This document shows, in pieces, positions 14,955 to 31,327 of a stretch of DNA of 64,000 nt (the stretch's first letter is position 1; each line of letters begins with the position of its first letter). The stretch is from a virus. The notes below the pieces were generated by a model. It searched no databases and was not told the origin of the DNA. It saw only the letters and a list, made by a program, of their open reading frames with translations. The stretch spans positions 9,468 through 73,467 of IMG/VR virus record IMGVR_UViG_3300048904_000313, one strand, 5' to 3'. The position numbers and the translations under genes are program-made.

Positions 14955-15028
14955 CCCCTTCCCGACCCTGGGCGGACGCTTCCCGGGGTGATAGATTGAT
15001 CCAGAACTGAGTGAAGGGAAGAGACCGC

Positions 15029-15994
15029 ATGGCACTCATTCTGCTTGAGGGTGTCGACGGCGGTGGCAAGTCCACGCTGGCCGACCGTATCGAGGAGACG
15101 TTCAAGTTCCTCACCGAGGACGACCCCAACCCGCCCCAGGTCGTCCGGATTCACAAGGGCAAGCCCACCCCCAACCTGGACGCGTTCCAGGAGTACGAGC
15201 TTCCCCTGGAGCGGTTCGACCTCCGCGACCTGATCCACTCAGCGCGAGACCTCGTCATCATGGACCGCTGGCACGCTGGCGAGATCCCCTACGGCACGAT
15301 CTACCGTGGCTCCAGCCGCCTGGACCAGGCCGGCCTCCTGCACGTGGAGCTCGTCCTCAGCGCGGTGGGCGCGGTGAAGGTGCTCGCTCAACCCGACGAG
15401 GTGGACCTCGTCAAGTTCCGTCTCAAGGCGCGGGGCGAGGACTTCCTGCAGCCTGAGCACGTGGACCGTGTCTGGCAGTGGTACGAGTCCCTGAAGAAGC
15501 TGTACGGCTACGTCCGCGCCAGTGACACCGCCCCGTCTGAGCTGATCCAGCTCGCCAGGGAGCGAGCCCTGGACTCTCATCGCACGGTGCCGCAGTCCTG
15601 GCCAGGGTACGTGGGCAGTCAGTTCCCGCGTCTTCTCCTGGTGGGAGACCAGCGGAACGACGGCCCCCGCGCTCGCCATGAGTTCGTCCGCGCCTTCACG
15701 CCGTGTCTCGGTGGCAGCTCCGCGGTCTACCTCCTCAACACGCTCAACCTGGCGGACATCCGTCGCGAGGTGGGCATCGTCAACGCTCACGAGCCGGGTG
15801 TGGATCTCACGCTGATCGACAAGATCGAGCCGCGGCCGGCCGTCGTGGCGCTTGGTCGCCTCGCGTCGAAGACGCTGACCGACGCCGGCGTGGAGCACGA
15901 GGCAGTGCCGCATCCTCAGTGGACGCGTCGCTTCCGCAACCAGAAGATGGGCTGGTATGCCCAGGAGATCAAGGAGGCCGCCGGATGGAAGTGA
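15029..15994 (+). CDS. dNMP (thymidylate-type) kinase fused to a uracil-DNA glycosylase-like domain
   Basis: N-terminal ILLEGVDGGGKSTLA and IMDRWH.GE..YG..YRG; C-terminal LLLVGDQRN, VVALGRLA, VPHPQW..RF. Confidence 0.75.
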   Translation: MALILLEGVDGGGKSTLADRIEETFKFLTEDDPNPPQVVRIHKGKPTPNLDAFQEYELPLERFDLRDLIHSARDLVIMDRWHAGEIPYGTIYRGSSRLDQAGLLHVELVLSAVGAVKVLAQPDEVDLVKFRLKARGEDFLQPEHVDRVWQWYESLKKLYGYVRASDTAPSELIQLARERALDSHRTVPQSWPGYVGSQFPRLLLVGDQRNDGPRARHEFVRAFTPCLGGSSAVYLLNTLNLADIRREVGIVNAHEPGVDLTLIDKIEPRPAVVALGRLASKTLTDAGVEHEAVPHPQWTRRFRNQKMGWYAQEIKEAAGWK

Positions 15995-16920
15995 TCGCCA
16001 AGACCGGCTCTGAGGCGTACGTGGAGCTGATGCAGGCTGTCCTCAACGAGGGTGAGCCGACGTCTCCACGTGGCCAGCTGACGTTTGAGCTGCTGAACGT
16101 CACCGTCCAGGTGGAGGACCTCGAGGAGGCGCACGTCCTCAACACGGCGAGGAAAGTCAACACCAAGATCCTCGCCACCGAGTACATGCACCTGCTCGGC
16201 GGCCTGAGCTCCCTTGAGCAGCTCGACCTCGCGTCCGGTGGGCGGTTCTCCCAGTTCGCGAACGGCGGCCGTCTCCTGGGCGCCTACGGCCCTCGAATCA
16301 GGCGTCAGCTGCCCAGGGTCGTTGAGCTTCTGAGCCGCGACCCCGACACCCGGCAGGCGGTCCTCTCCATCTGGACCGGCCGGGAGCACGAGGTCGACTC
16401 CAGGGACGTGCCCTGCACCCTGACCGTGCAGTTCCTCCTTCGCGACAACCAGCTTCACGTCCGCGTCTCCATGCGCTCTAATGATGTGGTGCTCGGCATT
16501 CCCTACGACTGGTGGATGTTCAGCCGGCTAGGCATGTCGGTGGCGTCGGCCCTGGGCGTGGAGACCGGCTCGTACACGCACACCGTTGGCTCCATGCACC
16601 TGTACGACCGCGACCTCGGCATCGCCAACGACGTGGAAGACATCGGCTTCCTCGCCAAGCCTCGCCTGGCGGTTCCCCCGGCTCTCACCTACGTCGGTGA
16701 CCGGGAGGACAAGGTCTTCCGAATGATCAAGCTGATGCAGGTGGCGGAGGACATCTGTCTCGACGACCCGTCGCACTGGGGCGCCGACTACCTCGGCATG
16801 GACTGGTACCACGGTCACGTGCCGCGGATCACCGACGTCAAGCAGTGTGTCAGCTGCCACTGCGTGGTCAAGACCGCTGAGATGTCGGAGCACCCACAGT
16901 TCTGCAAGGCCTGCAACTGA
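15985..16920 (+). CDS. Thymidylate-synthase-fold enzyme, dCMP hydroxymethylase-like (T4 gp42-like)
   Basis: DVPCTLTVQFLLRD...MRSNDVVLGIPYDWW; Asp (16507-16509) at the position that is Asn in dUMP-specific ThyA; HTVGSMHLY. Confidence 0.8.
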   Translation: MEVIAKTGSEAYVELMQAVLNEGEPTSPRGQLTFELLNVTVQVEDLEEAHVLNTARKVNTKILATEYMHLLGGLSSLEQLDLASGGRFSQFANGGRLLGAYGPRIRRQLPRVVELLSRDPDTRQAVLSIWTGREHEVDSRDVPCTLTVQFLLRDNQLHVRVSMRSNDVVLGIPYDWWMFSRLGMSVASALGVETGSYTHTVGSMHLYDRDLGIANDVEDIGFLAKPRLAVPPALTYVGDREDKVFRMIKLMQVAEDICLDDPSHWGADYLGMDWYHGHVPRITDVKQCVSCHCVVKTAEMSEHPQFCKACN

Positions 16921-17456
16921 TGACGTCGTGGCTGCAGCGAGAGCTGCTGCAACGCTATGACGGGAGGCAGATCTCGTGGGACGAGCTGTGGCTCAACGCC
17001 GCCTGCATGCTCGCCATGCGAAGTCGGTGTTCGCGCGACCGCGTTGGCGCCGTCATGGTGACCGACGACGATCGGGTCATCTCCGCCGGCTACAACGGCG
17101 CGCCGCCTACGTTCGCTGGTGACAAGAAGGGACCGTGTGCGGAGTGGTGTCCCCGCGCCATGCACACGCCTCTCGGCGAGCCTGGTAACCCCGGTTATCA
17201 GGACTGTCACGCCACGCACGCGGAGATGAACTGTCTCAAGCGAGCCCCCGCGGTCGAGGCCACGATGACCACGCGGCTGTACGTCAGTCGCATGCCATGC
17301 TATCCCTGCGCCAAGGAGATCGGCTCCACGTATGCGACGCACAACCTGCGTCAGCTCATCGTGCCGGTGAGCCATGAGGTCAACGTGCAGCACGGTGACG
17401 TCAGCCGGTCGGCGTCGTTCCTGGCTCAGTGTGGGATCAAGGTTCGCTTCGTCTAG
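16920..17456 (+). CDS. dCMP deaminase
   Basis: RSRC.R.RVGAV, SAGYNGAP, HAEMN, PCYPC. Confidence 0.9.
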   Translation: MTSWLQRELLQRYDGRQISWDELWLNAACMLAMRSRCSRDRVGAVMVTDDDRVISAGYNGAPPTFAGDKKGPCAEWCPRAMHTPLGEPGNPGYQDCHATHAEMNCLKRAPAVEATMTTRLYVSRMPCYPCAKEIGSTYATHNLRQLIVPVSHEVNVQHGDVSRSASFLAQCGIKVRFV

Positions 17457-17467
17457 CCAGGCTGACC

Positions 17468-17476
17468 TGGTATAGT
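17468..17476 (+). promoter_or_regulatory. Extended -10 element upstream of DNA polymerase
   Basis: TGGTATAGT in the intergenic gap; no clear -35. Confidence 0.4.
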
Positions 17477-17560
17477 TGACCCCAGACGGCAGCCCGTTGC
17501 GATTTCCGAGGTGGCGGCTGGGCTGCCGTCTAACTAGGAACGAGCGAGAGACGTGGTACG

Positions 17561-19339
17561 TTGACAGACTCCCCGCTTTCCAACGTCGAGCTGCACCTGG
17601 TGCAGAGCATCGACGACCTGATGGACATGAAGCGCTGGGCAGGCGAGCGCCGCGAGACCCCCATGGGAGCGGACACCGAGTCGGGTGACCTTTCGCCGTG
17701 GCACAGCAACCTTCGCACCATCCAGCTTGGCGACAAGCATCACGGCTGGTGCGTCCCGTGGGACCAGTGGGGCGGCGGTGCCCTCGAGATCCTCCAGAAC
17801 TACGAGGGCTCGTTCACGTGGCACAACCTCCCCCACGACGCCAAGTTCATGAAGGTCCACGCGGGCTACGACATCCCGTGGCACCGCACGGATGACACGC
17901 TCATCGGGGCGCGGATCCAGGACCCAGGGCGGCCCGCGGGACTGAAGCCGCTGGTCAGCAAGCTCGTCGACAAGACGGCATTGGCCGGCCAGAAGGCCCT
18001 CGATGACGGCATGAAGGCGCAGAAGTGGACGTGGGCCACGGTCCCGTTGAGCTTCGCGCCGTACTGGATCTACGCTGCGATGGACCCGGTACTCAACTGC
18101 CACCTCTGGGAGAAAATAATCCCGGACGTGCAAAGTCGGTTCGGCGCGGTCTACGACCTCGAGATGGCGATCGTCCGCATCGCTACCAAGATGATGCTCA
18201 AGGGCGCGCAGCTCGACCCCGTCTACATCGAGACGGAGCGGCAGAAGCTCCAGCAGTTCAGCACCGAGGCCAGGCTGTGGCTGAAGGTCACGTACGGCAT
18301 CACCAGTCCGTTGTCGGCCGGCCAGATCAGTCGCGCTCTCACACAGCTTGGCGTGGAGATCAGCGTCTTCACCGACGCCGGTGCGCCGAAGATGGACAAG
18401 GACACGCTGGAGTTCTACCAGAAGACCTCGTTCAACCCCGCCGTCCAGGAGCTCTGCCGCTACGTCCTTGCCGTCCGTCACGCGGACAAGCTGCGAGGCA
18501 CGTACCTCGACAACTTCATGTCCATGGCGGACTCCAACGGGATCATCCACGCCAGCATCAACACGCTGGCGGCCAGGACAAGTCGGATGTCCATGTCCGA
18601 CCCGAACTTCCAGAACCTGCCTCGCGACGACAAGATGATCCGTGGATCGGTCGTCCCACGGGAGGGCAACGTTCTCGTCACGTGTGACCTGGACCAGGTG
18701 GAGGCGCGCTTCGGCGCTCACTTCAGCGAGGACCCCGGTCTCGTGGAGGCCTTCAGCATCGCCGACAACGGCGGCACGGACTTCTTCTGCACCGTGGCCA
18801 GTGGCATCTACGCCGATGAGATCACGAACAAGAAGGACCCGCGTCGCCAGCCGACGAAGAACGTCTTCTATGGCTCGCTGTATGGAGCTGGCGCAAAGAA
18901 GATGGCGGAGACGGCCGGCATCCCGTTCGAGCAGATGGACCCGGTCAAGCGCGCGTTCGACTCGACCTACCCTGGTCTCAAGGCGGCGCTGGATCGCGTC
19001 TACCGCGAGGCGATGGAGCGGGAGAAGCCGTACATCGTCACCCCGTTCGGCCGTCACATCCCTCTGGACCGCGACCGCGCGTACACCCAGGGTCTCAACA
19101 GCCTCATCCAGGGGCATGCCGCGGAGTACTTCAAGGTCAGCCTGACCCGCATGGAAGCGGCGGACCTCGACCAGTTCCTCCTCATCCCGGTGCACGACGA
19201 GGTCGTGGCTGACGTGCCGGAGGACATGGCGGAAGAGGTGGCTCGCGCCATCGCGGAGTGCATGTCGGACGCGGACACCTATCGTGTCAAGATCAGCGCC
19301 GGCGCGGACATCCTCAAGGAGAGGTGGCAGAAGGTATGA
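17561..19339 (+). CDS. polA: Family A DNA polymerase (3'-5' exonuclease plus polymerase)
   Basis: Exo motifs ADTES, HNLPHD, YAAMDP; motif A CDLDQVEAR, motif B KNVFYGSLYG, motif C VHDEV. Confidence 0.95.
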   Translation: MTDSPLSNVELHLVQSIDDLMDMKRWAGERRETPMGADTESGDLSPWHSNLRTIQLGDKHHGWCVPWDQWGGGALEILQNYEGSFTWHNLPHDAKFMKVHAGYDIPWHRTDDTLIGARIQDPGRPAGLKPLVSKLVDKTALAGQKALDDGMKAQKWTWATVPLSFAPYWIYAAMDPVLNCHLWEKIIPDVQSRFGAVYDLEMAIVRIATKMMLKGAQLDPVYIETERQKLQQFSTEARLWLKVTYGITSPLSAGQISRALTQLGVEISVFTDAGAPKMDKDTLEFYQKTSFNPAVQELCRYVLAVRHADKLRGTYLDNFMSMADSNGIIHASINTLAARTSRMSMSDPNFQNLPRDDKMIRGSVVPREGNVLVTCDLDQVEARFGAHFSEDPGLVEAFSIADNGGTDFFCTVASGIYADEITNKKDPRRQPTKNVFYGSLYGAGAKKMAETAGIPFEQMDPVKRAFDSTYPGLKAALDRVYREAMEREKPYIVTPFGRHIPLDRDRAYTQGLNSLIQGHAAEYFKVSLTRMEAADLDQFLLIPVHDEVVADVPEDMAEEVARAIAECMSDADTYRVKISAGADILKERWQKV

Positions 19340-19833
19340 CCCGTCGCCTTGCCGCCGTCCCTGACCCACCGGACAAGCCCGGTGGCGACCCCAGCGTCGT
19401 GCTGTGGTTCGACCCCGGGCTCACCACGGGGTGGGCCTACCTGGAGATGGCCAGCTCGTTCAACAGTGGCCAGGCGCCGTTCGAGTCCATCGGTGAGCTG
19501 CTCACCGGCTGGGCGGAGATCCTCGGTCCCAACCTCTGGGTGGGGTGGGAGCTGTACAACGTCACCCAGGGTGGCGGCAAGGCGGGCACGCCCAAGTACA
19601 GCCTGGAGACCATCGGCATGCTGAAGTGGATCTGTCACGCTCACGACGTGACGGTCCTGAAGGCCATGCCGTCCGCGTCGCGGAAGCTCGGCGACGAGAT
19701 CAAGCTGAAGAAGCTGGACTGGCGGAAGCGTGGACAGGTCCACGCAAACGACGCCGCCATGCACCTCTTGGCGTGGCATCTTCGAGAGAAGAAGCTGCCC
19801 CCTCACCTGCTCTCGCGGGTGCTCGCCGACTAG
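19336..19833 (+). CDS. RuvC-like Holliday junction resolvase
   Basis: VLWFDPGLTTGWA...WE...HANDAAMH. Confidence 0.75.
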   Translation: MTRRLAAVPDPPDKPGGDPSVVLWFDPGLTTGWAYLEMASSFNSGQAPFESIGELLTGWAEILGPNLWVGWELYNVTQGGGKAGTPKYSLETIGMLKWICHAHDVTVLKAMPSASRKLGDEIKLKKLDWRKRGQVHANDAAMHLLAWHLREKKLPPHLLSRVLAD

Positions 19834-23734: not shown

Positions 23735-24412
23735 ATGGCCAGCTTCTCTTGGAATGACCTTCAGCAGGCTGCTGACGACGCCGGGTTCGGCGTCATCCCC
23801 GCCGGTGACTACGAGTGCTCGGTGAAGACCGCGGAGCACAAGAAGACGGGCACCGGCAAGGACAAGATCGCCGTTCGCTTCGTCGTCACCACCGGCCCGT
23901 CTGAGGGCAAGGCGGTCTTCAACGACTTCGTGATCAGCCCGGACAACGGCACCGCGCTCGGGTTCTTCTTCCGCCACATGAAGGCGCTGGGTCTCGGCCC
24001 GGACTACTTCGCCTCCAACCCCGACCTCGGCAAGGTCGCGGGTGACCTGGTCGGCCGCAGCTGTGTGGTCACCGTCGGCATCCGTCAGTGGAACGAGGAG
24101 GACCGCAACGAGGTCAAGGGCATCAAGGCCTCGGCTGGCGCGGCCGCTCCCATGACGGCAGCCAGCGCGGGCCCACAGCCGATGGCGGCTCAGCCGGCCA
24201 CCCGGCCGCAGCCGATGGCTCACCCGCAGCCCACCGCTCAGCCTCAGCCGACTGCCCAGCCGCAGCCGGTCTCCACGGAGAAGAAGGCGAAGAAGGAGGA
24301 GCCGAAGGACGAGGCGCCTGAGGCTCCCACCGCGGAGCCGCAGGACGCTCCGCCGGCGGCGGAGGCAGAGGCCGCCACCGACGCACCGGCGAAGCCCAAG
24401 CTGCCGTTCTGA
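23735..24412 (+). CDS. DUF669-like single-stranded DNA-binding protein
   Basis: FGVIPAGDYEC.V..AE.K.T.TGK..I...F.V; Pro/Gln/Ala-rich tail ending in LPF. Confidence 0.75.
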   Translation: MASFSWNDLQQAADDAGFGVIPAGDYECSVKTAEHKKTGTGKDKIAVRFVVTTGPSEGKAVFNDFVISPDNGTALGFFFRHMKALGLGPDYFASNPDLGKVAGDLVGRSCVVTVGIRQWNEEDRNEVKGIKASAGAAAPMTAASAGPQPMAAQPATRPQPMAHPQPTAQPQPTAQPQPVSTEKKAKKEEPKDEAPEAPTAEPQDAPPAAEAEAATDAPAKPKLPF

Positions 24413-25158
24413 TGGACGAGGCTCAGCCGATCCGACGCGGCGCTGCCAGGGAGGAGCGCCGCTTCGATCAGACGCAGCTCCGCGCCACGAAGTACGGGGA
24501 GCGGGTTCACCGCGACTATGCCGCTCACTTCTTCAAGTGGGGGTTCGCCACCAGGCACATCGGTCCCGAGGACCGCGTCCTGGAGGTCGGCTGTGGCAGT
24601 GAGCTTCCCCTCGTCAACGTGTTGCGGATGGGTGGCAGGTACAACCCCGCCAGCTACGTGGGTGCTGACCTCAACAAGGTCAGCGTCTACCGGCCGGAGT
24701 GGGCGACGATCCACGATCACTTCAACTTCGTGGACCGGTACCTGGAGCTCGCCACTGAGGACGCGTACACCGTGGGCGTGTGCATCGAGGCCATCGAGCA
24801 CATGAACGCGGAGGACGGCCTCAAGCTGCTGGAGGGGTTCCGCACCCTCCTGACGGACGACGGCAAGCTCATCCTCTCCACGCCCGTGTTCAACGGGCGG
24901 GCGGCGAAGAACCACATCCACGAGTACACGATCCCCGAGCTTCAGGCGGCGATCGAGCACACGGGCTGGCAGGTCGAGGCGCGCTACGGCACCTTCGCCT
25001 CGTACCGGGACATCGTCAAGGTGGCGACACCAGAGCACCGCCAGGTATTGGACGGCATCCGCCAGCTGTACAGCGAGGAGGTCACGGCCTGCTTCCTCGC
25101 CCCGCTGTACCCCGACCACAGTCGGAACAACGTCTGGGTCCTAACACCCAGGGGTTGA
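24412..25158 (+). CDS. Class I SAM-dependent methyltransferase
   Basis: RVLEVGCG, YVGADL, CIEAIEHM, LILSTP. Confidence 0.85.
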   Translation: MDEAQPIRRGAAREERRFDQTQLRATKYGERVHRDYAAHFFKWGFATRHIGPEDRVLEVGCGSELPLVNVLRMGGRYNPASYVGADLNKVSVYRPEWATIHDHFNFVDRYLELATEDAYTVGVCIEAIEHMNAEDGLKLLEGFRTLLTDDGKLILSTPVFNGRAAKNHIHEYTIPELQAAIEHTGWQVEARYGTFASYRDIVKVATPEHRQVLDGIRQLYSEEVTACFLAPLYPDHSRNNVWVLTPRG

Positions 25159-25183
25159 CAGGGTGTCGCCACCGTGCTAGAGT
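25155..25183 (+). promoter_or_regulatory. Strong sigma70/HrdB promoter
   Basis: TTGACA-N17-TAGAGT, upstream of the dCTPase-GT-Glf-Dcm operon. Confidence 0.8.
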
Positions 25184-25245
25184 CTGAGCCGGTGGCGACG
25201 CCCTCACTGGAAGAGAAGCGTGAAGCGACCAAGAGGAGACCTGTA

Positions 25246-25722
25246 GTGGAGTTCAACCAGTGGATCGCCGAGCAGCGCGCGTATCAGCGCGAGACGTTCG
25301 GCGTCGACTACACCCTGATGGCCAACGACGTGGACGCCCTCACGGCCTACGTCACGATGAACCTGAACGCGGCCTTCCTCGAGCTGGCGGAGACCCAGCA
25401 GGAGGTGCCGTGGAAGCCGTGGGCCGAGACGGAGGACCGCGCCAAGGTGTGGTCGACCGGCCGTGACAAGGTCGTCGGTGAGATCGTGGACGTGCTGATG
25501 TTCGTCGGCAACGTCCTCACCGCGGTCGACTGCTCCGACTCGGAGCTGGCCACCCGCTACGAGGCGAAGATGGCGGTCAACCGCCAGCGCCAGGCGGCGG
25601 GCTACGACAACACCAACAAGTGCGACGGCTGTGGCCGGGCGTTCGACGACCACGGCGTCAAGCTCGCCGGCGTGATGAACGGCAAGCCGCACTGCGAGAA
25701 GTGCTGGGAGGCGTTCGCGTGA
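25246..25722 (+). CDS. All-alpha dimeric dUTPase/dCTPase (T4 gp56-like) with C-terminal Zn ribbon
   Basis: ELAE...VPWKPW, GEIVDVLMFVGN, Y..K...N..RQ..GY; CDGC...CEKC; GTG at 25246 after AGGAGA. Confidence 0.8.
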   Translation: MEFNQWIAEQRAYQRETFGVDYTLMANDVDALTAYVTMNLNAAFLELAETQQEVPWKPWAETEDRAKVWSTGRDKVVGEIVDVLMFVGNVLTAVDCSDSELATRYEAKMAVNRQRQAAGYDNTNKCDGCGRAFDDHGVKLAGVMNGKPHCEKCWEAFA

Positions 25723-26738
25723 AGCTCCTCATGACGGGTACCACGAAGCAGCAGGTCGGGGGCGGCACCGCCCTCGGCTACGAGCCGGTGGCCGACCTCT
25801 TCGCTAAGGGCCTTCGCCTGGCCGGCCACGAGGTCGAGCACCGCAAGACCACCATCGGCGAGGACCTCGCCCCCTACGACGCGGTGCTGGTCGGTCTCGT
25901 GCCGTTCTTCTCCATCGCGTCCAACCAGCTCTACCACGCGCTCGACGTCATCGAGCGCGCGGAGAAGAGCGGTCACCCGCTGCTCTTCTTCGTGGACGAC
26001 TGGGCGTTCCCCCGCCTGGTGGCCAACCTCAACACTCACATCCGTCACCCCTGGCAGCTGACGAAGGAGTTCTTCAGCGGCAGGGCCAGCTACGACTGGG
26101 CGTGCTCCCGCAAGGAAGAGCTCCAGGTTCTCGTGGAGCGGATGCGCTATCAGCCGTGGGCACCCACCATCGTGCCGGCGTTCACCTGGGGTGACCATCA
26201 CAAGCTGACGGGGGAGGTGGAGATGATGACGCAGCCTCACTACGTCGACGTCTCCTCTCTCGCCATGGAGTACCCGCTCACCTTCCCGCCAGAGCGGGAG
26301 CGACGCTGGGTGCTCGGCACGATCAGCGACCAGCGGAAGTGGATGGACTCCCTCGGCCTCGGCTGGGAGGTCAATCACCTCGGGACGCGGGCCTCAAAGG
26401 CCCCCGAGAAGATGCCTGAGAGCCAGCTCGTGCAGCTCTACGCGGAGTCCTGGGGAGTTCTCAGCCCGCCGTACAAGCGGATCCTCGGGACAGGCTGGTG
26501 GCGCAACCGCGCCGTCTACGCCGCGAGGGCCGGCGCGATCCTGCTCAGCGACCCCGGTGAGATGCCGCAGCTGGGTGAGGCGTACCAGCTCAAGCCCGCC
26601 GAGGTCGAGGCCATGACGGACACCGAGCTCTGCAGCCTGGCGGCGGCACAGCGGCAGGCTCTCTTCAGCTGTCAGCCGTCCACCGGCCAGGTAGCGGCTC
26701 AGCTCGACGCGATCGTGCAGGGAGTGGTCAACAAGTGA
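25719..26738 (+). CDS. GT-B glycosyltransferase, DNA beta-glucosyltransferase-like
   Basis: Segments align by eye to T4 BGT: DLAPYDAVLV~DVNDYDRLIV, LLFFVDD~IYYLFTD, KMPESQLVQLYAES~KIPMNMVSEKNSQA, RNRAVYAARAGAILLSD~TLRVWETMASDAVMLID; similar length. Confidence 0.65.
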   Translation: MKLLMTGTTKQQVGGGTALGYEPVADLFAKGLRLAGHEVEHRKTTIGEDLAPYDAVLVGLVPFFSIASNQLYHALDVIERAEKSGHPLLFFVDDWAFPRLVANLNTHIRHPWQLTKEFFSGRASYDWACSRKEELQVLVERMRYQPWAPTIVPAFTWGDHHKLTGEVEMMTQPHYVDVSSLAMEYPLTFPPERERRWVLGTISDQRKWMDSLGLGWEVNHLGTRASKAPEKMPESQLVQLYAESWGVLSPPYKRILGTGWWRNRAVYAARAGAILLSDPGEMPQLGEAYQLKPAEVEAMTDTELCSLAAAQRQALFSCQPSTGQVAAQLDAIVQGVVNK

Positions 26739-27817
26739 AGTGCGTGGTGGTTGGCGCCGGCTTGGCCGGCGCCACCGCCGCTCGCAAGGTGAGCCTTCAC
26801 CCCGACTGGGAGGTCGAGGTCTACGAGGCAGCACCTGAGGTGGGCGGCAACCTGAGAGCCAGCTCCATTGCTGGCGTCCTGTACGAGCCCTTCGGGCCAC
26901 ACATCTTCCACACCAACAACCTCGTTGCCTGGGACTGGATCACCAGCTACGCCAAGCTGGTGCCGTATCAGCACACGGTCAAGAGTCAACTGGCCAACGG
27001 CCGCATCCTCTCCTGGCCTCCCCAGGTGGAGGAGCTGAAGACGCTGCCGGAGTGGTCGAGGATCGCCGCGGAGCTCGACGCGCGGCCGGCTTCTCCCTCC
27101 GCGGCGAACTTCGAGAGCTACGCCATCGAGGTCATGGGCGCCACGCTCTACGCCTGGTTCTGCGAGGAGTACACGCGCAAGCAGTGGGGGACCGACCCTC
27201 ACCTGCTGAGCTCCAGGTTCGCACCGAAGCGGATCGACCTTCGCACGGACGGCGATCGGCGACTCTTCCGCGATCAGGACCAGGGTTGGGTGGCGGGTGG
27301 CTTCCAGAACCTCGTCCACGCGCTGCTGCACAACATCCCGGTCCACACTGGACGAGAGCTCACTCTCTCCACGCTGCCGGCGGCGGACGCCTACGTCATT
27401 ACCGCGCCCCTGGACGACTTCCTCGGTGAGGAGCCCCTTCCCTGGCGCGGCGTCCGCAGTGAGGCCACCTACTACCCCGACCGCGTGGGTCGTTCGCTCC
27501 CCGCACCGGTGCTCAACCGGCCGGGCGCGGAGGTCCCGTGGACTCGGGAGGTGGAGACCAGGCAGATGGCGGGCCAGGACACACTGGGCACCGTCATCGT
27601 GAGGGAGTACCCTGGGGCCAGCACCAGGTACTACCCGGTGGACGACGTCGACGGGGAGAACCGTGCCCGGTGGCGGGCGCTGCGAGACGAGCTCAAGATC
27701 CACCTGCCCAACGCCCACCTGGCCGGTCGCCTGGCCAACTACGTCTACATCGACATGGACCAGGCCATCGTCCAGGCTCTCAACGCCGCAGGACGGATCA
27801 CGAGGGGAACAGAGTGA
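26735..27817 (+). CDS. glf: UDP-galactopyranose mutase homologue
   Basis: FAD motif VVGAGLAG, GGN, GPHIFHT, YTRKQWG, REYP, YYP, GRLANY.YIDMDQAI. Confidence 0.9.
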   Translation: MKCVVVGAGLAGATAARKVSLHPDWEVEVYEAAPEVGGNLRASSIAGVLYEPFGPHIFHTNNLVAWDWITSYAKLVPYQHTVKSQLANGRILSWPPQVEELKTLPEWSRIAAELDARPASPSAANFESYAIEVMGATLYAWFCEEYTRKQWGTDPHLLSSRFAPKRIDLRTDGDRRLFRDQDQGWVAGGFQNLVHALLHNIPVHTGRELTLSTLPAADAYVITAPLDDFLGEEPLPWRGVRSEATYYPDRVGRSLPAPVLNRPGAEVPWTREVETRQMAGQDTLGTVIVREYPGASTRYYPVDDVDGENRARWRALRDELKIHLPNAHLAGRLANYVYIDMDQAIVQALNAAGRITRGTE

Positions 27818-29076
27818 CCTACACGTTCATCGACAACCAGGGCTTCGCCGGCGGCTTCGCCTGTGGCGCCACCCAGGCGGGCTTCCACCTGGTCGGCAAG
27901 CTGGAGAAGCCGGGTGGCTTCGGCGTCCCGCTGATGGAGGCCAACCGCGTCTTCCTCGGCGACGACTGGGAGGCACAGGTCGGCGATCCCAGCAGCTGGA
28001 AGGCCGTCAAGGCCGACGTCATCGTTGCCACGCCACCCTGCAGCGGCTTCTCCTCCATGACAGCCGGCATCGCTGGCATGCACGGCATCGACGCGCCGAT
28101 CAACCAGTGCATGAAGGACCTGATCGGCTACGCCATCAAGGTCAAGCCCACGGTCGTCTGCATGGAGTCGGTCGGCCAGGCGTACACCAAGGGTCTCGAC
28201 CTGATGCGGCGGCTGCGTCAGACGCTCAGCGACGAGACGGGGCTCACGTATCACGCCACGCACGTGATGCAGAACAACCTCTCCACGGGTGGCTGCACCA
28301 ACCGCCGGCGGTACTTCCTCGTGTTGAGCCAGGTGCCCTTCGGCGTGGAACGCTACGACCTGAAGCGAGTCGCCACCGTGGGTGACGCGCTCGAGGACCT
28401 GCGCAACCTCGACATCACCTGGGACCCTCAGGCGTACGAGGACGAGCCGACCTGGTGGTCCGCGGAGCGTCGCTCCAAGACCGGCATGGTGGACGGCCAC
28501 ATGGACCCGCCCGACGGCCCGTACAAGCGTCGCATCTACGACATGGCGCAGAGCCCCGACGCCGTGGAGTGGAAGGCGGGCGAGGGCGACACGGACATGC
28601 TCCGTCGCTGGTACGAGACGCACGGCTCGCTCCCCGACTCCTGGGACTACGTCTCCGCTGGCAAGGAGAAGAGCCGTACTGAACAGATGGTGGAGCGCGG
28701 CTTCAAGATGGGCGGCTTCTCCAAGCCGAAGCACTGGCCGTGGGACGTCCCAGGCCGCGTGATCAACGGCTCCGGCCCGATCCAGGTGTGGCACCCCGAC
28801 GGCCGCTTCTCCACGCACCGGGAGATCGCTCGCCTGATGGGCTTCCCCGACGACTGGGTGGTCGGCACTGCGAAGGACACCCGCGCCCTCACCTCCTACT
28901 GGGGCAAGGGCACGTCCGTCTCGCCGGCGAAGTGGCTGATGGACTGGGTGCGCAACAGCCTGGACGGCAACCCTGGTTCCTACGTAGGCGAGGAACTGGC
29001 GGCAGGTGACCGCTTCATCACGGTCGCCCCGGACTGGAAGCCGGTCTGGGAGGCACAGACCGCCACGGCAGCCTGA
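27814..29076 (+). CDS. Divergent DNA cytosine-C5 methyltransferase (Dcm-like)
   Basis: Motif I-like QGFAGGF, motif IV PPCSGFS, motif VI variant MESV, motif VIII RRRYF, motif IX-X THREIARLMGFPDDW...GKG. Confidence 0.75.
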   Translation: MTYTFIDNQGFAGGFACGATQAGFHLVGKLEKPGGFGVPLMEANRVFLGDDWEAQVGDPSSWKAVKADVIVATPPCSGFSSMTAGIAGMHGIDAPINQCMKDLIGYAIKVKPTVVCMESVGQAYTKGLDLMRRLRQTLSDETGLTYHATHVMQNNLSTGGCTNRRRYFLVLSQVPFGVERYDLKRVATVGDALEDLRNLDITWDPQAYEDEPTWWSAERRSKTGMVDGHMDPPDGPYKRRIYDMAQSPDAVEWKAGEGDTDMLRRWYETHGSLPDSWDYVSAGKEKSRTEQMVERGFKMGGFSKPKHWPWDVPGRVINGSGPIQVWHPDGRFSTHREIARLMGFPDDWVVGTAKDTRALTSYWGKGTSVSPAKWLMDWVRNSLDGNPGSYVGEELAAGDRFITVAPDWKPVWEAQTATAA

Positions 29077-29182: not shown

Positions 29183-29256
29183 CGGGACGTAGTTCAACTT
29201 GGTAGAGCACCTGGTTTGGGACCAGGATGTTGGGGGTTCAAATCCCTCCGTCCCGA
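29183..29256 (+). tRNA. tRNA-Pro(TGG)
   Basis: Acceptor CGGGACG/CGTCCCG, anticodon arm CCTGG-TTTGGGA-CCAGG, T-loop GGTTCAAATCC; no encoded CCA. Confidence 0.95.
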
Positions 29257-29363
29257 CGTGAGGACTGGGCACGGGTAGAGCGTAAGACATGCGCGCTTAC
29301 GGCTCCAGGGTAGAAACCCCGTGGCATCTGACAACTGCTTAGCAAGGAAGGGAAGGGAAGCGA

Positions 29364-29759
29364 GTGAGCAAGAACACGACCAACGCCGGCAGCGTCGGCA
29401 AGGCGATCGGCGCTGGCGTCCTCGGTCTCGCGGTCTTCGGCGGCGTCATCTTCGGCGGCTGGGAGGCGGGTTGGTGGTTCACCAACCAGAACGCGAACCG
29501 TGAGGGTCACGTCATCCGCAACAGCTACTCCAACCAGCAGACGCTGCGGGACCAGATCACCAAGGGCCTCGGTGACGTGACGGACATGGACCGTCAGATC
29601 ACTCAGGCGAAGGGCGACAACGCCACCGCGCTGACTGCCCAGCGGCACGCCATCGCCAACCAGGTCTGCCAGGAGGCAGTGCAGGTAAGCGGTGATCCGC
29701 TGCCGTCCGATCAGGCCGACTGGGTGTCCCAGAACTGCGTCATGGGGAGCGCGAAGTGA
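29364..29759 (+). CDS. Membrane-anchored protein
   Basis: N-terminal hydrophobic helix; helical periplasmic-type C-terminus with two Cys. Confidence 0.7.
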   Translation: MSKNTTNAGSVGKAIGAGVLGLAVFGGVIFGGWEAGWWFTNQNANREGHVIRNSYSNQQTLRDQITKGLGDVTDMDRQITQAKGDNATALTAQRHAIANQVCQEAVQVSGDPLPSDQADWVSQNCVMGSAK

Positions 29760-30352
29760 AGAAGACGATCCAGGTCCGCACCAAGTACCTCGTCCTCGGG
29801 ACCGCCATGGTCGGCGTTCTCACCCTGACGGCCGGTGCCTGCGACGATGGTGGCAGCAGCAGCGGTCAGGACAAGGAGAACAAGCAGCAGGCACAGTCCA
29901 CGAACTCCCTGGTCACCAACCAGCCGATCCCGCACTTCAACTACTCGCAGATCCGGCAGAACCTGAAGGAGATCGAGGCGGCGGAGGCCAACGGCGTCCA
30001 GACCACCACGTTCTTCTTCAACCAGGGCGTCCAGGACCCGATCGACTCCTGCCCGTCCATCGGCGCGCCGATCCCCACCACGGACCAGCTCTCCAACCCG
30101 CAGCAGACCACGGACGGCCACTACAACGGCAACTACGGTCTCACCACGATCGGGCAGATGGACCCCACCGGCGTCTACACCGGTGACTCCAGCGGCACGT
30201 ACGTGATGTGCGTCGGCGGCAACGGCAAGACCTACGCCTCCTACTGGGAGGGCTACGTCAAGACCGTCTTCGCCAACGCCACCTGGGACAAGGCCACGCA
30301 CAGCGTCAAGGTGCTGGGCGACCCGTCCTTCAAGTTCACCGGCAAGAAGTAG
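29756..30352 (+). CDS. Putative lipoprotein
   Basis: Basic N-terminus, hydrophobic core, lipobox-like TAGAC. Confidence 0.7.
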   Translation: MKKTIQVRTKYLVLGTAMVGVLTLTAGACDDGGSSSGQDKENKQQAQSTNSLVTNQPIPHFNYSQIRQNLKEIEAAEANGVQTTTFFFNQGVQDPIDSCPSIGAPIPTTDQLSNPQQTTDGHYNGNYGLTTIGQMDPTGVYTGDSSGTYVMCVGGNGKTYASYWEGYVKTVFANATWDKATHSVKVLGDPSFKFTGKK

Positions 30353-30364
30353 GGGGACCGGGAC

Positions 30365-30766
30365 GTGCGGATCAAGAAGGCTCTCGCCTCCGCCGGCGTC
30401 GCGCTGGCACTCGTCGGTGGCGTCGACGCCACCACCACGGCCTGCGGCAAGGGCGTCGGCGGCTACAGTGACGCTGGGTATGTGGACGAGGTGCAGTACG
30501 GGTACTACGACCCGGGCTACGCCGGCGACGCGGCGCACTACCACTACTACCCGCACCCCAAGCAGGTGCACATCCCCGCGAGCCAGTACCGCAAGTACCG
30601 GTACGAGTACCAGCCACACGGGACGCAGCACACGGTGACCGTCCACCGCACGACGACCACCACGACGCATCACAGCAAGACCGGTCACAAGATCACGACG
30701 CGTCACGTCACGTCCCGCCGGACCACGACGACGACTCGACGCAGCACCACGAGCCGTCACCACTGA
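30365..30766 (+). CDS. Putative lipoprotein with Tyr-rich core and Thr/His/Arg-rich tail
   Basis: MRIKK..hydrophobic..TTAC; low-complexity C-terminus. Confidence 0.6.
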   Translation: MRIKKALASAGVALALVGGVDATTTACGKGVGGYSDAGYVDEVQYGYYDPGYAGDAAHYHYYPHPKQVHIPASQYRKYRYEYQPHGTQHTVTVHRTTTTTTHHSKTGHKITTRHVTSRRTTTTTRRSTTSRHH

Positions 30767-30777
30767 TCCACTTGCCG

Positions 30778-30806
30778 CGGGACCCTGGCCAGGTGCCAGG
30801 GTCCCG
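30778..30806 (+). terminator. Intrinsic terminator hairpin
   Basis: CGGGACCCTGGC-CAGGT-GCCAGGGTCCCG. Confidence 0.75.
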
Positions 30807-30845
30807 TGGTAGGGTACAGGGGAGGATGGACATCCATCACCTCGT

Positions 30846-30922
30846 AGCGGGATGGCGCAGTTCGGTAGCGCGTGGGGCTCATAACCCTGAGGCCGTGGGT
30901 TCAAATCCCACTCCCGCCACCA
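30846..30922 (+). tRNA. tRNA-Met(CAT), initiator-like
   Basis: Anticodon arm with GGG/CCC, CTCATAA loop, 1:72 mismatch (A/C), TTCAAAT T-loop, CCA end. Confidence 0.9.
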
Positions 30923-30923
30923 A

Positions 30924-30999
30924 TGACTTGTAGCTCAATCGGCAGAGCATCGCACTGTTAATGCGGGTGTTGCAGGTTCGAGTCCTGCCAGGTCAGCCA
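30924..30999 (+). tRNA. tRNA-Asn(GTT)
   Basis: TGACTTG/CAGGTCA acceptor, CGCA-CTGTTAA-TGCG, GGTTCGAGTCC, CCA. Confidence 0.95.
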
Positions 31000-31000
31000 T

Positions 31001-31076
31001 GCGTCTGTAGCTCAGCGGCCAGAGCAGCCGTCTCCAAAGCGGCTAGTCCCAGGTTCGAGTCCTGGCAGGCGTGCCA
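31001..31076 (+). tRNA. tRNA-Trp(CCA)
   Basis: GCGTCTG/CAGGCGT acceptor, GCCGT-CTCCAAA-GCGGC, GGTTCGAGTCC, CCA. Confidence 0.95.
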
Positions 31077-31077
31077 T

Positions 31078-31149
31078 TCCCCGTTGGTGTAATTGGCAAC
31101 ACACCACGCTCTGGACGTGGCATTCGAGGTTCGAATCCTCGGTGGGGAG
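31078..31149 (+). tRNA. tRNA-Gln(CTG)
   Basis: TCCCCGT/GTGGGGA acceptor, CCACG-CTCTGGA-CGTGG, GGTTCGAATCC; no encoded CCA. Confidence 0.9.
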
Positions 31150-31327
31150 CTCGCAAGTAACGGGCGGAGTAAGGAAGCCCAGGGCCACGAGAGTCAGATG
31201 GGAATCCTTTTCCTTAGTCCACGCCCGTGGAGGTCCCGGCAGTCGCTTGTGGTGAGGGTCTCGTCCCGCCACGTCTCTTAGCCGGAGGCCAGCGAGACGA
31301 GACCTCTCAACTCTCGCGACGAGGGTG

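What the first reader, a model, noticed from the sequence alone, without database searches (positions are those of the whole stretch)
15985..16920. ThyA-fold enzyme carries the cytosine-specifying Asp and resembles T4 gp42 rather than ThyA
The active-site segment DVPCTLTVQFLLRD...MRSNDVVLGIPYDWW parallels T4 gp42 (as I recall it, DFMCTNTVQYLIRD...MRSNDVVFGFRNDYAW). Canonical ThyA has PCH and RSxDxxLGxPFN. The Asn-to-Asp change is the established determinant of dCMP versus dUMP preference. An automatic annotation as thymidylate synthase would hide this. The C-terminal CxxC...CxxC ribbon is an extra feature.
Basis: partly seen in the sequence, partly recalled or inferred. Interest (0 to 1): 0.7.

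Follow-up and report, generated by a model that had tools for sequence, protein, structure and literature searches.

The report
Phage dCMP hydroxymethylase mislabelled thymidylate synthase
An uncultured high-GC root/soil phage carries a relative of thymidylate synthase whose active site matches the enzymes that add a hydroxymethyl group to cytosine nucleotides, so it most likely starts a T4-style replacement of cytosine in the phage DNA rather than making thymidine; this kind of enzyme is already known, but this lineage is routinely annotated as thymidylate synthase.

Summary
Window 15985-16920 (+) encodes a 311-aa thymidylate-synthase (TS)-fold protein. In E. coli ThyA numbering it has Asp143, Cys146, Thr147, Met165-Arg-Ser-Asn-Asp169 and Asp177.

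- **Same signature:** a T4-like gp42, and MilA except for Ala at 167.
- **Different signatures:** canonical TS (Leu/His/Gln/Asn), SPO1/SP10 dUMP hydroxymethylases (Asn177), Xp12/PaMx74 dCMP methylases (Asn143/Pro147/Leu165) and 5-hydroxy-dCMP synthases (Asn169).
- **Conservation:** Asp143 and Asp177 are kept in 247 of 248 homologues.
- **Sugar:** Arg123 and Ser165 indicate a deoxyribose substrate.

The 107.5-kb phage also has ThyX, no DHFR and no second ThyA. It carries a gp1-like kinase, a dCMP deaminase, a gp56-like dCTPase, a T4 beta-glucosyltransferase-fold enzyme and a UDP-galactopyranose mutase.

Best reading (about 0.75): a methylene-THF-dependent dCMP hydroxymethylase feeding glycosylated hmC DNA.

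The "resembles gp42" claim holds for the active site only. Overall the protein is as far from gp42 as from ThyA. MilA is the nearest solved structure, and the protein forms its own clade with Gordonia, Actinomycetia and Stenotrophomonas AXL3 phage enzymes. The C-terminal CxxC...CxxC ribbon is real and conserved in about 70% of homologues; its function is unknown.

Asp177 TS homologues next to a deaminase and PolA are already published. This scan's index lists 37 findings matching those search words in other genomes; the eight shown describe Asp177 TS homologues. The find is sound but a new member of a known kind.

The parts
15971..15977 (+). Ribosome-binding site AAGGAGG, 7 nt before the ATG
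   Evidence: Read directly from the sequence.
15985..16920 (+). TS-fold gene (P0001, 311 aa), predicted dCMP hydroxymethylase (5hmdCMP synthase)
   Evidence: Pfam PF00303 1.1e-25, matching profile positions 2-216 of 266 only. Best PDB sequence match is MilA, 1.3e-25. AF2 model has mean pLDDT 95.7. Best Foldseek match is MilA 5jnh.
16006..16629 (+). TS catalytic core, residues 8-215
   Evidence: Range of the Pfam and PDB matches. Invariant R29, E66, Y101, R123, H205 and Y207 in 101 relatives.
16405..16419 (+). D141-V-P-C144-T145: Asp at E. coli Leu143, the catalytic Cys146, and Thr at His147
   Evidence: The Leu143-to-Asp/Glu rule for hydroxymethyl versus methyl products comes from PMC13326640.
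16471..16509 (+). M163-R-S-N-D167...G171...D175: Met at Gln165, Ser167 kept, Asp169 kept (folate type), Asp at Asn177 (cytosine type)
   Evidence: The meaning of Asn177 and Asp169 comes from PMC13326640 and PMC8670742.
16630..16917 (+). C-terminal extension, residues 216-311, replacing the TS C-terminal lid. It has helices at 243-259 and 272-278 followed by a small beta ribbon.
   Evidence: AF2 secondary structure with pLDDT of about 93-98. MilA aligns over 293-300 columns, against about 250 for TS.
16846..16914 (+). C288-x2-C291 ... C307-x2-C310, a putative zinc ribbon
   Evidence: Conserved in 149-173 of 248 homologues, with a CxxC[RH]Y[VI] pattern. Zinc binding is inferred, not shown.
15029..15994 (+). 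Upstream, translationally coupled gene: a P-loop dNMP-kinase domain fused to a UDG-superfamily-like C-terminal domain (gp1-like role inferred)
   Evidence: phrog_761 5.4e-13. PDB YorR 2axp 5.9e-4. Atlas links to the UDG family, as leads only. Full-length homologues precede the TS-like gene in L006, L008, L009, DSL-LC01 and AXL3.
16920..17456 (+). Downstream, translationally coupled dCMP/dCTP-type deaminase
   Evidence: Pfam PF00383 5.3e-13 and phrog_174 1.2e-32. Conserved next to the TS-like gene in all related loci examined.
24412..25158 (+). SAM-dependent methyltransferase, role unknown
   Evidence: Pfam Methyltransf_23 6.4e-10. 39% identical (8e-62) to AXL3 gp31, which sits in the same module in AXL3.
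25174..25722 (+). gp56-like all-alpha dCTPase/dUTPase with its own C-terminal CxxC...CxxC (maximal ORF; the true start is probably later)
   Evidence: Pfam dUTPase_2 1.3e-5. phrog_18650 6.5e-21. Pairwise BLAST to the gp56 frame of a T4-like phage 4e-6, with a shared WKPW motif. Cysteine motif.
25719..26738 (+). GT-B glycosyltransferase with the T4 beta-glucosyltransferase fold
   Evidence: AF2 mean pLDDT 96.5. The six best Foldseek PDB hits are all T4 BGT (1qkj 8.6e-9, TM 0.63). Atlas lead to PF09198.
26735..27817 (+). UDP-galactopyranose mutase (Glf)
   Evidence: Pfam GLF 5.8e-24 plus NAD_binding_8.

Best explanation
P0001 is a 5,10-methylene-tetrahydrofolate-dependent deoxycytidylate hydroxymethylase (dCMP to 5-hydroxymethyl-dCMP, the reaction of T4 gp42). 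The mechanism below is inferred by homology.

1. Cys144 attacks C6 of dCMP.
2. Asp175 reads and protonates the cytosine N3/N4 edge, in place of the Asn that reads uracil.
3. The one-carbon unit of methylene-THF is transferred to C5. Asp167 and the TS folate pocket are retained.
4. Asp141 replaces the water-excluding Leu143 and the TS C-terminal lid is absent. The exocyclic methylene intermediate is therefore hydrated rather than reduced, giving 5hmdCMP and THF, not DHF.

Inferred pathway:

- The coupled upstream kinase phosphorylates 5hmdCMP.
- The gp56-like pyrophosphatase removes dCTP.
- The phage PolA incorporates 5hmdCTP.
- The BGT-fold transferase, supplied by the adjacent UDP-galactopyranose mutase, glycosylates hmC in DNA.
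- The coupled deaminase supplies dUMP to the phage ThyX for dTMP, or trims modified dC nucleotides.

Shown here: the fold, the residue signature, its conservation and the gene context. Not shown: substrate, product, zinc binding, or any modification of the DNA.
For: **1. TS fold.** Pfam 1.1e-25. AF2 model with pLDDT 95.7. The top Foldseek and phmmer PDB hits are MilA, a cytosine-nucleotide hydroxymethylase.

**2. Signature table (MilA), at positions 143/146/147/165-169/177.**
- P0001: D/C/T/MRSND/D
- T4-like gp42: D/C/T/MRSND/D
- MilA: D/C/T/MRAND/D
- Canonical TS: L/C/H/QRSxD/N
- SP10 and SPO1-like dUMP hydroxymethylases: D/C/N/NRSND/N
- Xp12 and PaMx74 dCMP methylases: N/C/P/LRSSD/D
- RB69 and RL38J1 5hodCMP synthases: E/C/T/MRSQN/D

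The published meanings are: Asn177Asp gives dCMP, Leu143Asp/Glu gives a hydroxymethyl product, and Asp169Asn gives flavin-dependent hydroxylation (PMC13326640). His147 and Asn177 differ between modified and unmodified metavirome contigs (PMC8670742).

**3. Conservation.** Asp141 and Asp175 are kept in 247 of 248 homologues.

**4. Sugar specificity.** Arg123 and Ser165 are the deoxyribose-type residues. MilA and BcmA have Lys and Ala, and the A176S/K133R mutant switches MilA to dCMP (PMC5175136; alignment).

**5. C-terminus.** The Pfam match stops at profile position 216 of 266, as in gp42 (219) and the SP10 hydroxymethylase (217). td covers 1-266.

**6. Genome content.** The genome has ThyX (7.9e-46), no second ThyA and no DHFR. 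Xp12 and PaMx74 place DHFR beside their methylase.

**7. T4-like partner set in the same phage.**
- Kinase.
- Deaminase.
- gp56-like pyrophosphatase.
- BGT-fold transferase, which needs a hydroxyl acceptor.
- Glf.

**8. Tree.** The clade lies inside a 99/93-supported group of hydroxylating and hydroxymethylating enzymes that excludes canonical TS and the PaMx74 methylase.

**9. Cultured relative.** Stenotrophomonas phage AXL3 has the same kinase-UDG / TS-like / deaminase / NTP-PPase / methyltransferase module plus ThyX. Its DNA resisted 35 of 37 restriction enzymes and was cut only by the two with A/T-only sites (PMC7504290).
Against: - There is no biochemical or DNA-chemistry evidence for this phage or for any member of its clade.
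- The residue rules are correlations drawn from a few dozen tested enzymes.
- In the 2024 preprint, five of the seven in-cis TS homologues tested (those linked to its seven active deaminases) made 5mdC, not 5hmdC.
- The clade is not sister to gp42, so function is inferred from convergent or retained residues and not from orthology.
- Gln replaces the second phosphate-binding Arg (E. coli Arg127'), as in dUMP hydroxymethylases.
- A C5 DNA-methyltransferase-like gene follows Glf. It would be pointless if all cytosine were replaced.
- The conserved C-terminal ribbon has no explained role.
Confidence: 0.75

Rival explanations
1. It is an Xp12-type dCMP methyltransferase. The enzyme reduces the methylene intermediate to give 5-methyl-dCMP. 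The coupled deaminase then makes dTTP from 5mdCTP, and the DNA carries 5mC.
For: Asp177 is shared with Xp12 and PaMx74. The gene order TS(Asp177) - deaminase - PolA is the arrangement reported for metavirome contigs, where five of seven tested TS homologues made 5mdC and the deaminases preferred 5mdCTP.
Against: - Positions 143/147/165 are Asp/Thr/Met, not the Asn/Pro/Leu of Xp12 and PaMx74.
- There is no DHFR, whereas both methylase phages encode one in cis.
- The phage has ThyX, so the 5mC-to-T bypass is not needed.
- A BGT-fold glycosyltransferase and Glf need a hydroxyl acceptor.
- The tree separates the PaMx74 enzyme from this group at 99/93.
Confidence: 0.1
2. It is a dCMP hydroxymethylase whose product is mostly deaminated by the coupled deaminase (5hmdCMP or 5hmdCTP to the 5hmdU nucleotide). 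The DNA modification would then sit on thymine positions (hmU or glycosyl-hmU) rather than on cytosine.
For: The TS-like and deaminase genes are translationally coupled (TGATG). Phage deaminases in cis with Asp177 TS homologues can convert 5hmdCTP to 5hmdUTP. Another finding of this scan raised the same route for a different soil phage (e1-5360941; not tested here).
Against: - The phage keeps ThyX, which is unnecessary if T were replaced.
- In AXL3, A/T-only sites stay cleavable while all sites containing G/C are blocked.
- The gp56-like dCTPase and the BGT-fold enzyme fit the hmC route.
Confidence: 0.08
3. It is a flavin-dependent 5-hydroxy-dCMP synthase (RB69 gp48 / RL38J1 type). It would feed O-glycosylated 5-hydroxycytosine, as in RL38J1, which also uses a phage NDP-sugar mutase and galactose.
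For: It shares Cys146/Thr147/Met165/Asp177 with that class. The Glf-plus-glycosyltransferase context resembles the RL38J1 pathway proposed in PMC13326640. RB69 gp48 scores 82 bits in pairwise BLAST.
Against: The diagnostic Asp169Asn change is absent: Asp167 is invariant in 248 of 248 homologues. Position 143 is Asp rather than Glu, and position 168 is Asn/Ser rather than Gln.
Confidence: 0.04
4. It is an ordinary thymidylate synthase (dUMP to dTMP), as annotated, or a MilA-like CMP hydroxymethylase for a small-molecule product.
For: Pfam, PHROGs and source annotations say thymidylate synthase. MilA is the best structural match.
Against: - For TS: Asn177, His147, Gln165, Leu143 and the C-terminal lid are all missing, and ThyX is present.
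- For MilA type: the ribose determinants Lys133 and Ala176 are Arg and Ser here, and the gene sits in a phage replication module.
Confidence: 0.03

Closest known systems
T4 gp42 deoxycytidylate hydroxymethylase (EC 2.1.2.8; PDB 1B5E family), compared here through the gp42 of T4-like phage FelixPlatter
   Same: Identical residues at every specificity position examined (Asp143, Cys146, Thr147, Met165, Arg166, Ser167, Asn168, Asp169, Asp177, Glu58, His207 and Tyr209 equivalents). Both lack the TS C-terminal lid. The partner set is the same: kinase, dCTPase, deaminase and a BGT-fold transferase.
   Different: - Only 36.8% identity over 106 residues (57.8 bits), no better than to canonical TS.
- Not sister in the tree.
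- P0001 has Arg29 where gp42 has Lys, and Gln124 where gp42 has the second Arg.
- P0001 has a 95-residue C-terminal extension with a Cys4 ribbon that gp42 (246 aa) lacks.
MilA, CMP 5-hydroxymethylase of mildiomycin biosynthesis (Streptomyces rimofaciens; PDB 5jnh, 5b6d)
   Same: Best sequence match (1.3e-25) and best structural match (TM 0.73 over about 295 columns, about 30% identity), including part of the extra C-terminal helical region. It shares the Asp143/Thr147/Met165/Asp177 signature.
   Different: MilA has Lys133 and Ala176 for ribose; P0001 has Arg123 and Ser165, the deoxyribose type. MilA has no Cys4 ribbon reported and belongs to an antibiotic gene cluster, not a phage replication module.
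Metavirome Asp177 TS homologues in cis with dCMP-type deaminases, PolA and a PRA-PH/MazG pyrophosphatase (MetaGPA: eLife 2021 PMC8670742; bioRxiv 10.1101/2024.12.05.627091), and Xp12/PaMx74 dCMP methylases
   Same: The same gene-neighbourhood logic (TS-like, then deaminase, then PolA) and the same Asp177 switch.
   Different: The tested members of that set mostly make 5mdC. Xp12 and PaMx74 have Asn143/Pro147/Leu165 and an in-cis DHFR. P0001 has the hydroxymethylase residues, ThyX, no DHFR, and a glycosyltransferase plus Glf.
Uncharacterised 'thymidylate synthases' of Stenotrophomonas phage AXL3 (gp28), Pseudoxanthomonas phage PW916, Actinomycetia phage DSL-LC01, and Gordonia phages Phendrix and GodonK
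   Same: 33-37% identity, the same signature, and the same kinase / TS-like / deaminase neighbourhood. AXL3 DNA resists all tested enzymes with G/C in their sites.
   Different: These proteins are 269-294 aa, and AXL3 gp28 lacks the Cys4 ribbon. AXL3 and PW916 are phages of Gammaproteobacteria hosts. None has been assayed.

Membership tests
dCMP hydroxymethylase (T4 gp42 type, EC 2.1.2.8) | Thymidylate-synthase fold with the catalytic Cys146 nucleophile | tested here: met
   Pfam PF00303 1.1e-25. AF2 pLDDT 95.7 and Foldseek hits to MilA and TS. Cys144 is kept in 247 of 248 homologues.
dCMP hydroxymethylase (T4 gp42 type, EC 2.1.2.8) | Asp at the E. coli Asn177 position (cytosine rather than uracil) | tested here: met
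   Asp175 aligns with Asn of td/ThyA and with Asp of gp42 and MilA.
dCMP hydroxymethylase (T4 gp42 type, EC 2.1.2.8) | Acidic residue at the Leu143 position (water access, hydroxymethyl product) | tested here: met
   Asp141, kept in 247 of 248 homologues. The rule comes from PMC13326640.
dCMP hydroxymethylase (T4 gp42 type, EC 2.1.2.8) | Folate-type Asp169 retained, and no TS C-terminal lid | tested here: met
   Asp167 is invariant. The Pfam match ends at profile position 216 of 266, as in gp42.
dCMP hydroxymethylase (T4 gp42 type, EC 2.1.2.8) | Deoxyribose determinants (Arg126' and Ser167 equivalents) | tested here: met
   Arg123 and Ser165 are invariant in 101 relatives. Their meaning comes from PMC5175136.
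dCMP hydroxymethylase (T4 gp42 type, EC 2.1.2.8) | Common descent with gp42 (orthology) | tested here: inconclusive
   gp42 is a 3.95-substitutions-per-site branch outside the clade. Pairwise similarity is no better than to TS.
dCMP hydroxymethylase (T4 gp42 type, EC 2.1.2.8) | Catalysis: dCMP + CH2-THF + H2O gives 5hmdCMP + THF | not testable with these tools
   Needs an enzyme assay or in vivo LC-MS.
Canonical thymidylate synthase ThyA (EC 2.1.1.45) | Asn177, His147, Gln165, Leu143 and the full C-terminal folate lid | tested here: not met
   The residues are Asp, Thr, Met and Asp, and profile positions 217-266 are absent. The genome has ThyX instead.
5-hydroxy-dCMP synthase (RB69 gp48 / DLP3 gp80 / RL38J1 type) | Asp169-to-Asn diagnostic substitution | tested here: not met
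   Asp167 is present here and in 248 of 248 homologues. RB69 and RL38J1 have Asn. The rule comes from PMC13326640.
dCMP methyltransferase (Xp12 type) | Asp177 together with the non-acidic 143 / Pro147 / Leu165 seen in Xp12 and PaMx74, and an in-cis DHFR | tested here: not met
   Only Asp177 is shared. No DHFR in the genome, against frd next to the TS gene in Xp12 and PaMx74. The 143/147/165 pattern is my own comparison of two related enzymes, not a published rule.
MilA/BcmA CMP hydroxymethylase | Lys133' and Ala176 (ribose preference) | tested here: not met
   Arg123 and Ser165 at the aligned positions.
dUMP hydroxymethylase (SPO1 gp29 / SP10 type) | Asn177 kept, with Asn147 and Asn165 | tested here: not met
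   The residues here are Asp175, Thr145 and Met163.

The most novel reading that the evidence does not exclude
This clade would be the entry enzyme of an undescribed cytosine hypermodification in high-GC soil and root phages. 5hmdC made by P0001 would be incorporated and then decorated with galactofuranose by the BGT-fold transferase, using UDP-Galf from the phage Glf. The matching C-terminal Cys4 ribbons on the hydroxymethylase and on the gp56-like dCTPase would be docking tags that assemble a phage dNTP-synthesising complex.
Probability: 0.25. Interest if true: 0.75.

Novelty: new member of a known kind. Interest (0 to 1): 0.45.

Why it matters
- **Annotation.** At least 522 cluster representatives (at 50% identity) match this protein at E <= 1e-30. 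The 248 examined all but uniformly carry the cytosine/hydroxymethyl signature, yet sources that give this lineage a name mostly call it thymidylate synthase. Re-labelling changes the predicted DNA chemistry of many soil, root and freshwater phages. These include cultured ones (Gordonia phages Phendrix and GodonK, Stenotrophomonas AXL3), where the prediction can be tested directly.
- **A published puzzle.** It offers a concrete explanation for two observations on AXL3: it carries both 'ThyA' and ThyX, and its DNA resists every enzyme with G/C in its site.
- **Practical consequences.** hmC-type DNA affects restriction and CRISPR sensitivity, cloning, and sequencing of such phages.
- **Limit.** The enzyme class itself is not new.

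Tried and rejected
- **Megablast of 15000-19400 against 50,697 phage records:** no match. The genome is an uncultured IMG/VR record.
- **The search for related loci in GTDB genomes:** the family alignment had no usable conserved stretch. P0001 alone gave 32 pattern hits but no tblastn-confirmed relative. No prophage or cellular copy was found at that sensitivity, and MilA could not be added to the tree as a sequence. Its residues were read from the HMMER alignment.
- **PDB sequence search of the glycosyltransferase-like protein:** only chance-level hits. Its identity came from the fold.
- **Paper searches:** dCMP hydroxymethylase with actinobacteriophage, AXL3 with hypermodification, and GodonK/Phendrix/DSL-LC01 with modification all found nothing relevant.
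- **Sequencing runs:** the stretch is held by root-metagenome runs, two of which may be the source. No RNA holder is listed.
- **Complex prediction:** not used. I make no binding claim, and neighbouring genes alone are not reason enough.
- **Model coordinates:** not available to scripts, so Cys-Cys distances and the position of the ribbon relative to the active site could not be measured.
- **Rejected idea:** that the C-terminal ribbon is a cut-down Endonuclease VII domain. Pfam gives no such hit for P0001. In the fused homologues the nuclease domain starts only after about residue 325-358, beyond the position of the ribbon.
Full report
**What is there.** The window lies in a single 107,550-bp virus record (IMG/VR type, CheckV 100% complete, about 66% G+C). 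The same stretch is held by root-metagenome sequencing runs. Megablast finds no near relative among 50,697 phage records.

The gene at 15985-16920 (+) encodes 311 residues (P0001).
- It has an AAGGAGG site seven bases before its ATG.
- Its start overlaps the stop of the upstream gene (ATGGAAGTGA).
- Its stop overlaps the start of the downstream gene (TGATG).

The three genes therefore look translationally coupled.

**Checking the observation.** Its recollection of T4 gp42 was essentially right. The gp42 of the T4-like phage FelixPlatter aligns column for column across both active-site segments. Three canonical TS proteins show PCH and QRSxDxFLGxPFN in those columns.

Pfam calls the protein Thymidylat_synt (1.1e-25), but only over profile positions 2-216 of 266. 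PHROGs and the JGI names of homologues say 'thymidylate synthase'.

**Residue signature.** I fetched enzymes whose products are described in the literature and aligned them (tables).

| Enzyme class | 143 | 146 | 147 | 165-169 | 177 |
|---|---|---|---|---|---|
| Canonical TS | L | C | H | QRSxD | N |
| SP10 and SPO1-like dUMP hydroxymethylases | D | C | N | NRSND | N |
| Xp12 and PaMx74 dCMP methylases | N | C | P | LRSSD | D |
| RB69 gp48 and RL38J1 5-hydroxy-dCMP synthases | E | C | T | MRSQN | D |
| T4-like gp42 | D | C | T | MRSND | D |
| MilA (read) | D | C | T | MRAND | D |
| P0001 | D | C | T | MRSND | D |

Positions are in E. coli ThyA numbering. The published meaning of these positions is as follows.
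- Asn177Asp gives dCMP preference.
- Leu143Asp/Glu correlates with hydroxymethyl rather than methyl products.
- Asp169Asn marks the flavin-dependent hydroxylases (PMC13326640).
- Positions 147 and 177 differ between cytosine-modified and unmodified metavirome contigs (PMC8670742).

P0001 also has Arg123 and Ser165. MilA and BcmA have Lys and Ala there for ribose, and the A176S/K133R mutant turns MilA into a dCMP enzyme (PMC5175136). The general catalytic residues (equivalents of Arg21, Glu58, Tyr94, His207 and Tyr209) are invariant.

Across 248 homologues, Asp141 and Asp175 are each kept 247 times and Asp167 248 times. The signature is therefore a property of a large family, not a quirk of one sequence.

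**Family and phylogeny.**
- An exhaustive HMMER search found 9,582 cluster representatives at E <= 0.001 and 522 at E <= 1e-30.
- The word-index search found 810 homologues, almost all from metagenomes.
- In an IQ-TREE tree of the catalytic core (38 sequences), P0001 sits in a 98/98-supported clade with the 'thymidylate synthases' of Actinomycetia phage DSL-LC01 and Gordonia phage Phendrix.
- That clade lies inside a 99/93 group which also holds the dUMP hydroxymethylases, the 5hodCMP synthases, AXL3 and PW916. The group excludes canonical TS and the PaMx74 methylase.
- gp42 is a very long branch just outside.
- Pairwise BLAST scores: DSL-LC01 148 bits, AXL3 129, SPO1-like 97, SP10 90, RB69 gp48 82, td 56-66, gp42 58.

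MilA is the closest solved structure by sequence (1.3e-25) and by fold (TM 0.73 over about 295 columns, against about 250 columns for TS).

**Structure and the C-terminal tail.** The AF2 model is confident throughout (pLDDT 95.7, pTM 0.94). After the core, from about residue 216, the TS lid is replaced by two helices and a small beta ribbon. The ribbon carries C288-x2-C291 and C307-x2-C310.

The pattern W-Y...H-V-P...C-x2-C-[RH]-Y-[VI]...C-x2-C recurs in about 70% of the 248 homologues. It is absent from AXL3 gp28 and gp42. Zinc binding is inferred from the motif only. I could not measure geometry because model coordinates are not exposed. The function of the tail is unknown.

Two side observations may bear on it.
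- The gp56-like pyrophosphatase of the same phage also ends in CxxC...CxxC.
- Seven of the ten longer family members that I scanned carry a C-terminal Endonuclease VII domain.

**Context.**
- *Upstream (15029-15994).* A P-loop dNMP-kinase-like domain (phrog_761; PDB YorR) is fused to a domain that the Atlas links to the UDG superfamily. The Atlas link is a lead only.
- *Downstream.* A dCMP-type deaminase, then PolA, an SNF2 helicase, a PD-(D/E)XK nuclease, AAA_24 and DUF669.
- *Further on.* A SAM methyltransferase; a dUTPase_2/gp56-like pyrophosphatase (BLAST 4e-6 to the gp56 frame of a T4-like phage); a protein whose confident model best matches T4 beta-glucosyltransferase (top six PDB hits); UDP-galactopyranose mutase; and a C5-DNA-methylase-like gene.
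- *Elsewhere in the genome.* There is a ThyX, no second ThyA and no DHFR.

The kinase-UDG / TS-like / deaminase / PolA order recurs in 98-216-kb metagenomic contigs, in DSL-LC01, more loosely in Phendrix, and in AXL3 and PW916. Full-length similarity of the kinase fusion and 39% identity of the methyltransferase to AXL3 gp31 support this.

For AXL3 the authors reported that 35 of 37 restriction enzymes failed. Only TasI and Tru1I, which have A/T-only sites, cut. They were puzzled that the phage has both 'thymidylate synthase' and ThyX. A cytosine hydroxymethylase explains both points.

**Most likely mechanism.** P0001 is a methylene-THF-dependent dCMP hydroxymethylase.
1. Cys144 adds to C6 of dCMP.
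2. Asp175 handles the cytosine N3/N4 edge.
3. The one-carbon unit is transferred from methylene-THF to C5.
4. With Asp141 in place of Leu143 and no lid, water rather than hydride quenches the exocyclic methylene. This gives 5hmdCMP and THF.

The pathway around it is inferred. The kinase, the dCTPase and PolA would put hmC into DNA. The BGT-fold enzyme with Glf would glycosylate it. The deaminase with ThyX would supply dTMP. I put this at about 0.75.

Rivals:
- Xp12-type methylase, 0.10.
- hmC nucleotides largely deaminated to hmU nucleotides, 0.08.
- 5hodCMP synthase, 0.04.
- Plain TS or MilA-type CMP enzyme, 0.03.

**Novelty.** Asp177 TS homologues in phage metagenomes, their co-location with deaminases, PolA and MazG-type pyrophosphatases, and their role in cytosine replacement are all published. 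[quoted passage not shown]

A word search of this scan's index returned 37 findings in other genomes, and the eight shown describe Asp177 TS homologues. The glycosyltransferase-Glf pair and the whole pathway of this genome are covered by separate notes.

What is specific here:
- A large, deep, uncharacterised clade with the full hydroxymethylase signature.
- A MilA-like C-terminal extension ending in a conserved Cys4 ribbon.
- Cultured members on which the prediction can be tested.

That makes it a sound finding of moderate interest: a new member of a known kind.

Noticed in passing
window 25174-25722: The gp56-like dCTPase/dUTPase also ends in a CxxC...CxxC motif (residues 150-177 of the maximal ORF). 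Two enzymes of the same presumed pathway therefore carry similar C-terminal Cys4 tails. Shared docking or assembly is a guess.
   Followed up: partly
window 15029-15994; L002:5037-6020; L010:5985-6980: The fusion of a dNMP-kinase domain to a UDG-superfamily-like domain is conserved over its full length, from high-GC metagenomic phages to Actinomycetia phage DSL-LC01 and Stenotrophomonas phage AXL3 (gp29, annotated thymidylate kinase). It always sits directly before the Asp177 TS-like gene. The role of the UDG-like half is unknown.
   Followed up: partly
proteins P0073, P0123, P0137, P0142, P0152, P0164 (metagenomic homologues): Six longer family members carry a C-terminal Endonuclease VII (PF02945) domain after the TS-like part and its tail, and P0092 carries DUF5678. 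These could be homing-endonuclease fusions, or a nuclease that feeds dCMP from unmodified DNA. P0057 and P0067 have about 200 extra C-terminal residues with no Pfam hit.
   Followed up: partly
window 24412-25158 and L002:3668-4492: The SAM methyltransferase is 39% identical (8e-62) to AXL3 gp31, which lies in the same nucleotide-modification module in AXL3 and PW916. It may act on the modified base or nucleotide. It is absent from loci L008 and L009.
   Followed up: partly
G000:C1:96433-97107 (outside the window): An intact ThyX gene (PF02511, 7.9e-46). The phage makes dTMP by the flavin route while carrying the ThyA-fold hydroxymethylase. No DHFR is found anywhere in the genome.
   Followed up: yes
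window 29183-31150: Five tRNA genes (Pro-TGG, Met-CAT, Asn-GTT, Trp-CCA, Gln-CTG). Four of them lie head to tail at 30846-31150.
   Followed up: no
window 27538-29076: A C5 cytosine DNA-methyltransferase-like gene follows Glf (Pfam DNA_methylase 4.1e-15). Its use is unclear if cytosine C5 is already substituted. A homologue also follows the pyrophosphatase and the unknown gene in locus L009.
   Followed up: no
L025:3834-4322 and L022:39165-39632: The Xp12 and PaMx74 dCMP-methylase modules both place a dihydrofolate reductase right after the TS-like and deaminase genes. The hydroxymethylase-type phages examined here show none nearby. This may be a useful context marker for methyl versus hydroxymethyl products.
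   Followed up: partly
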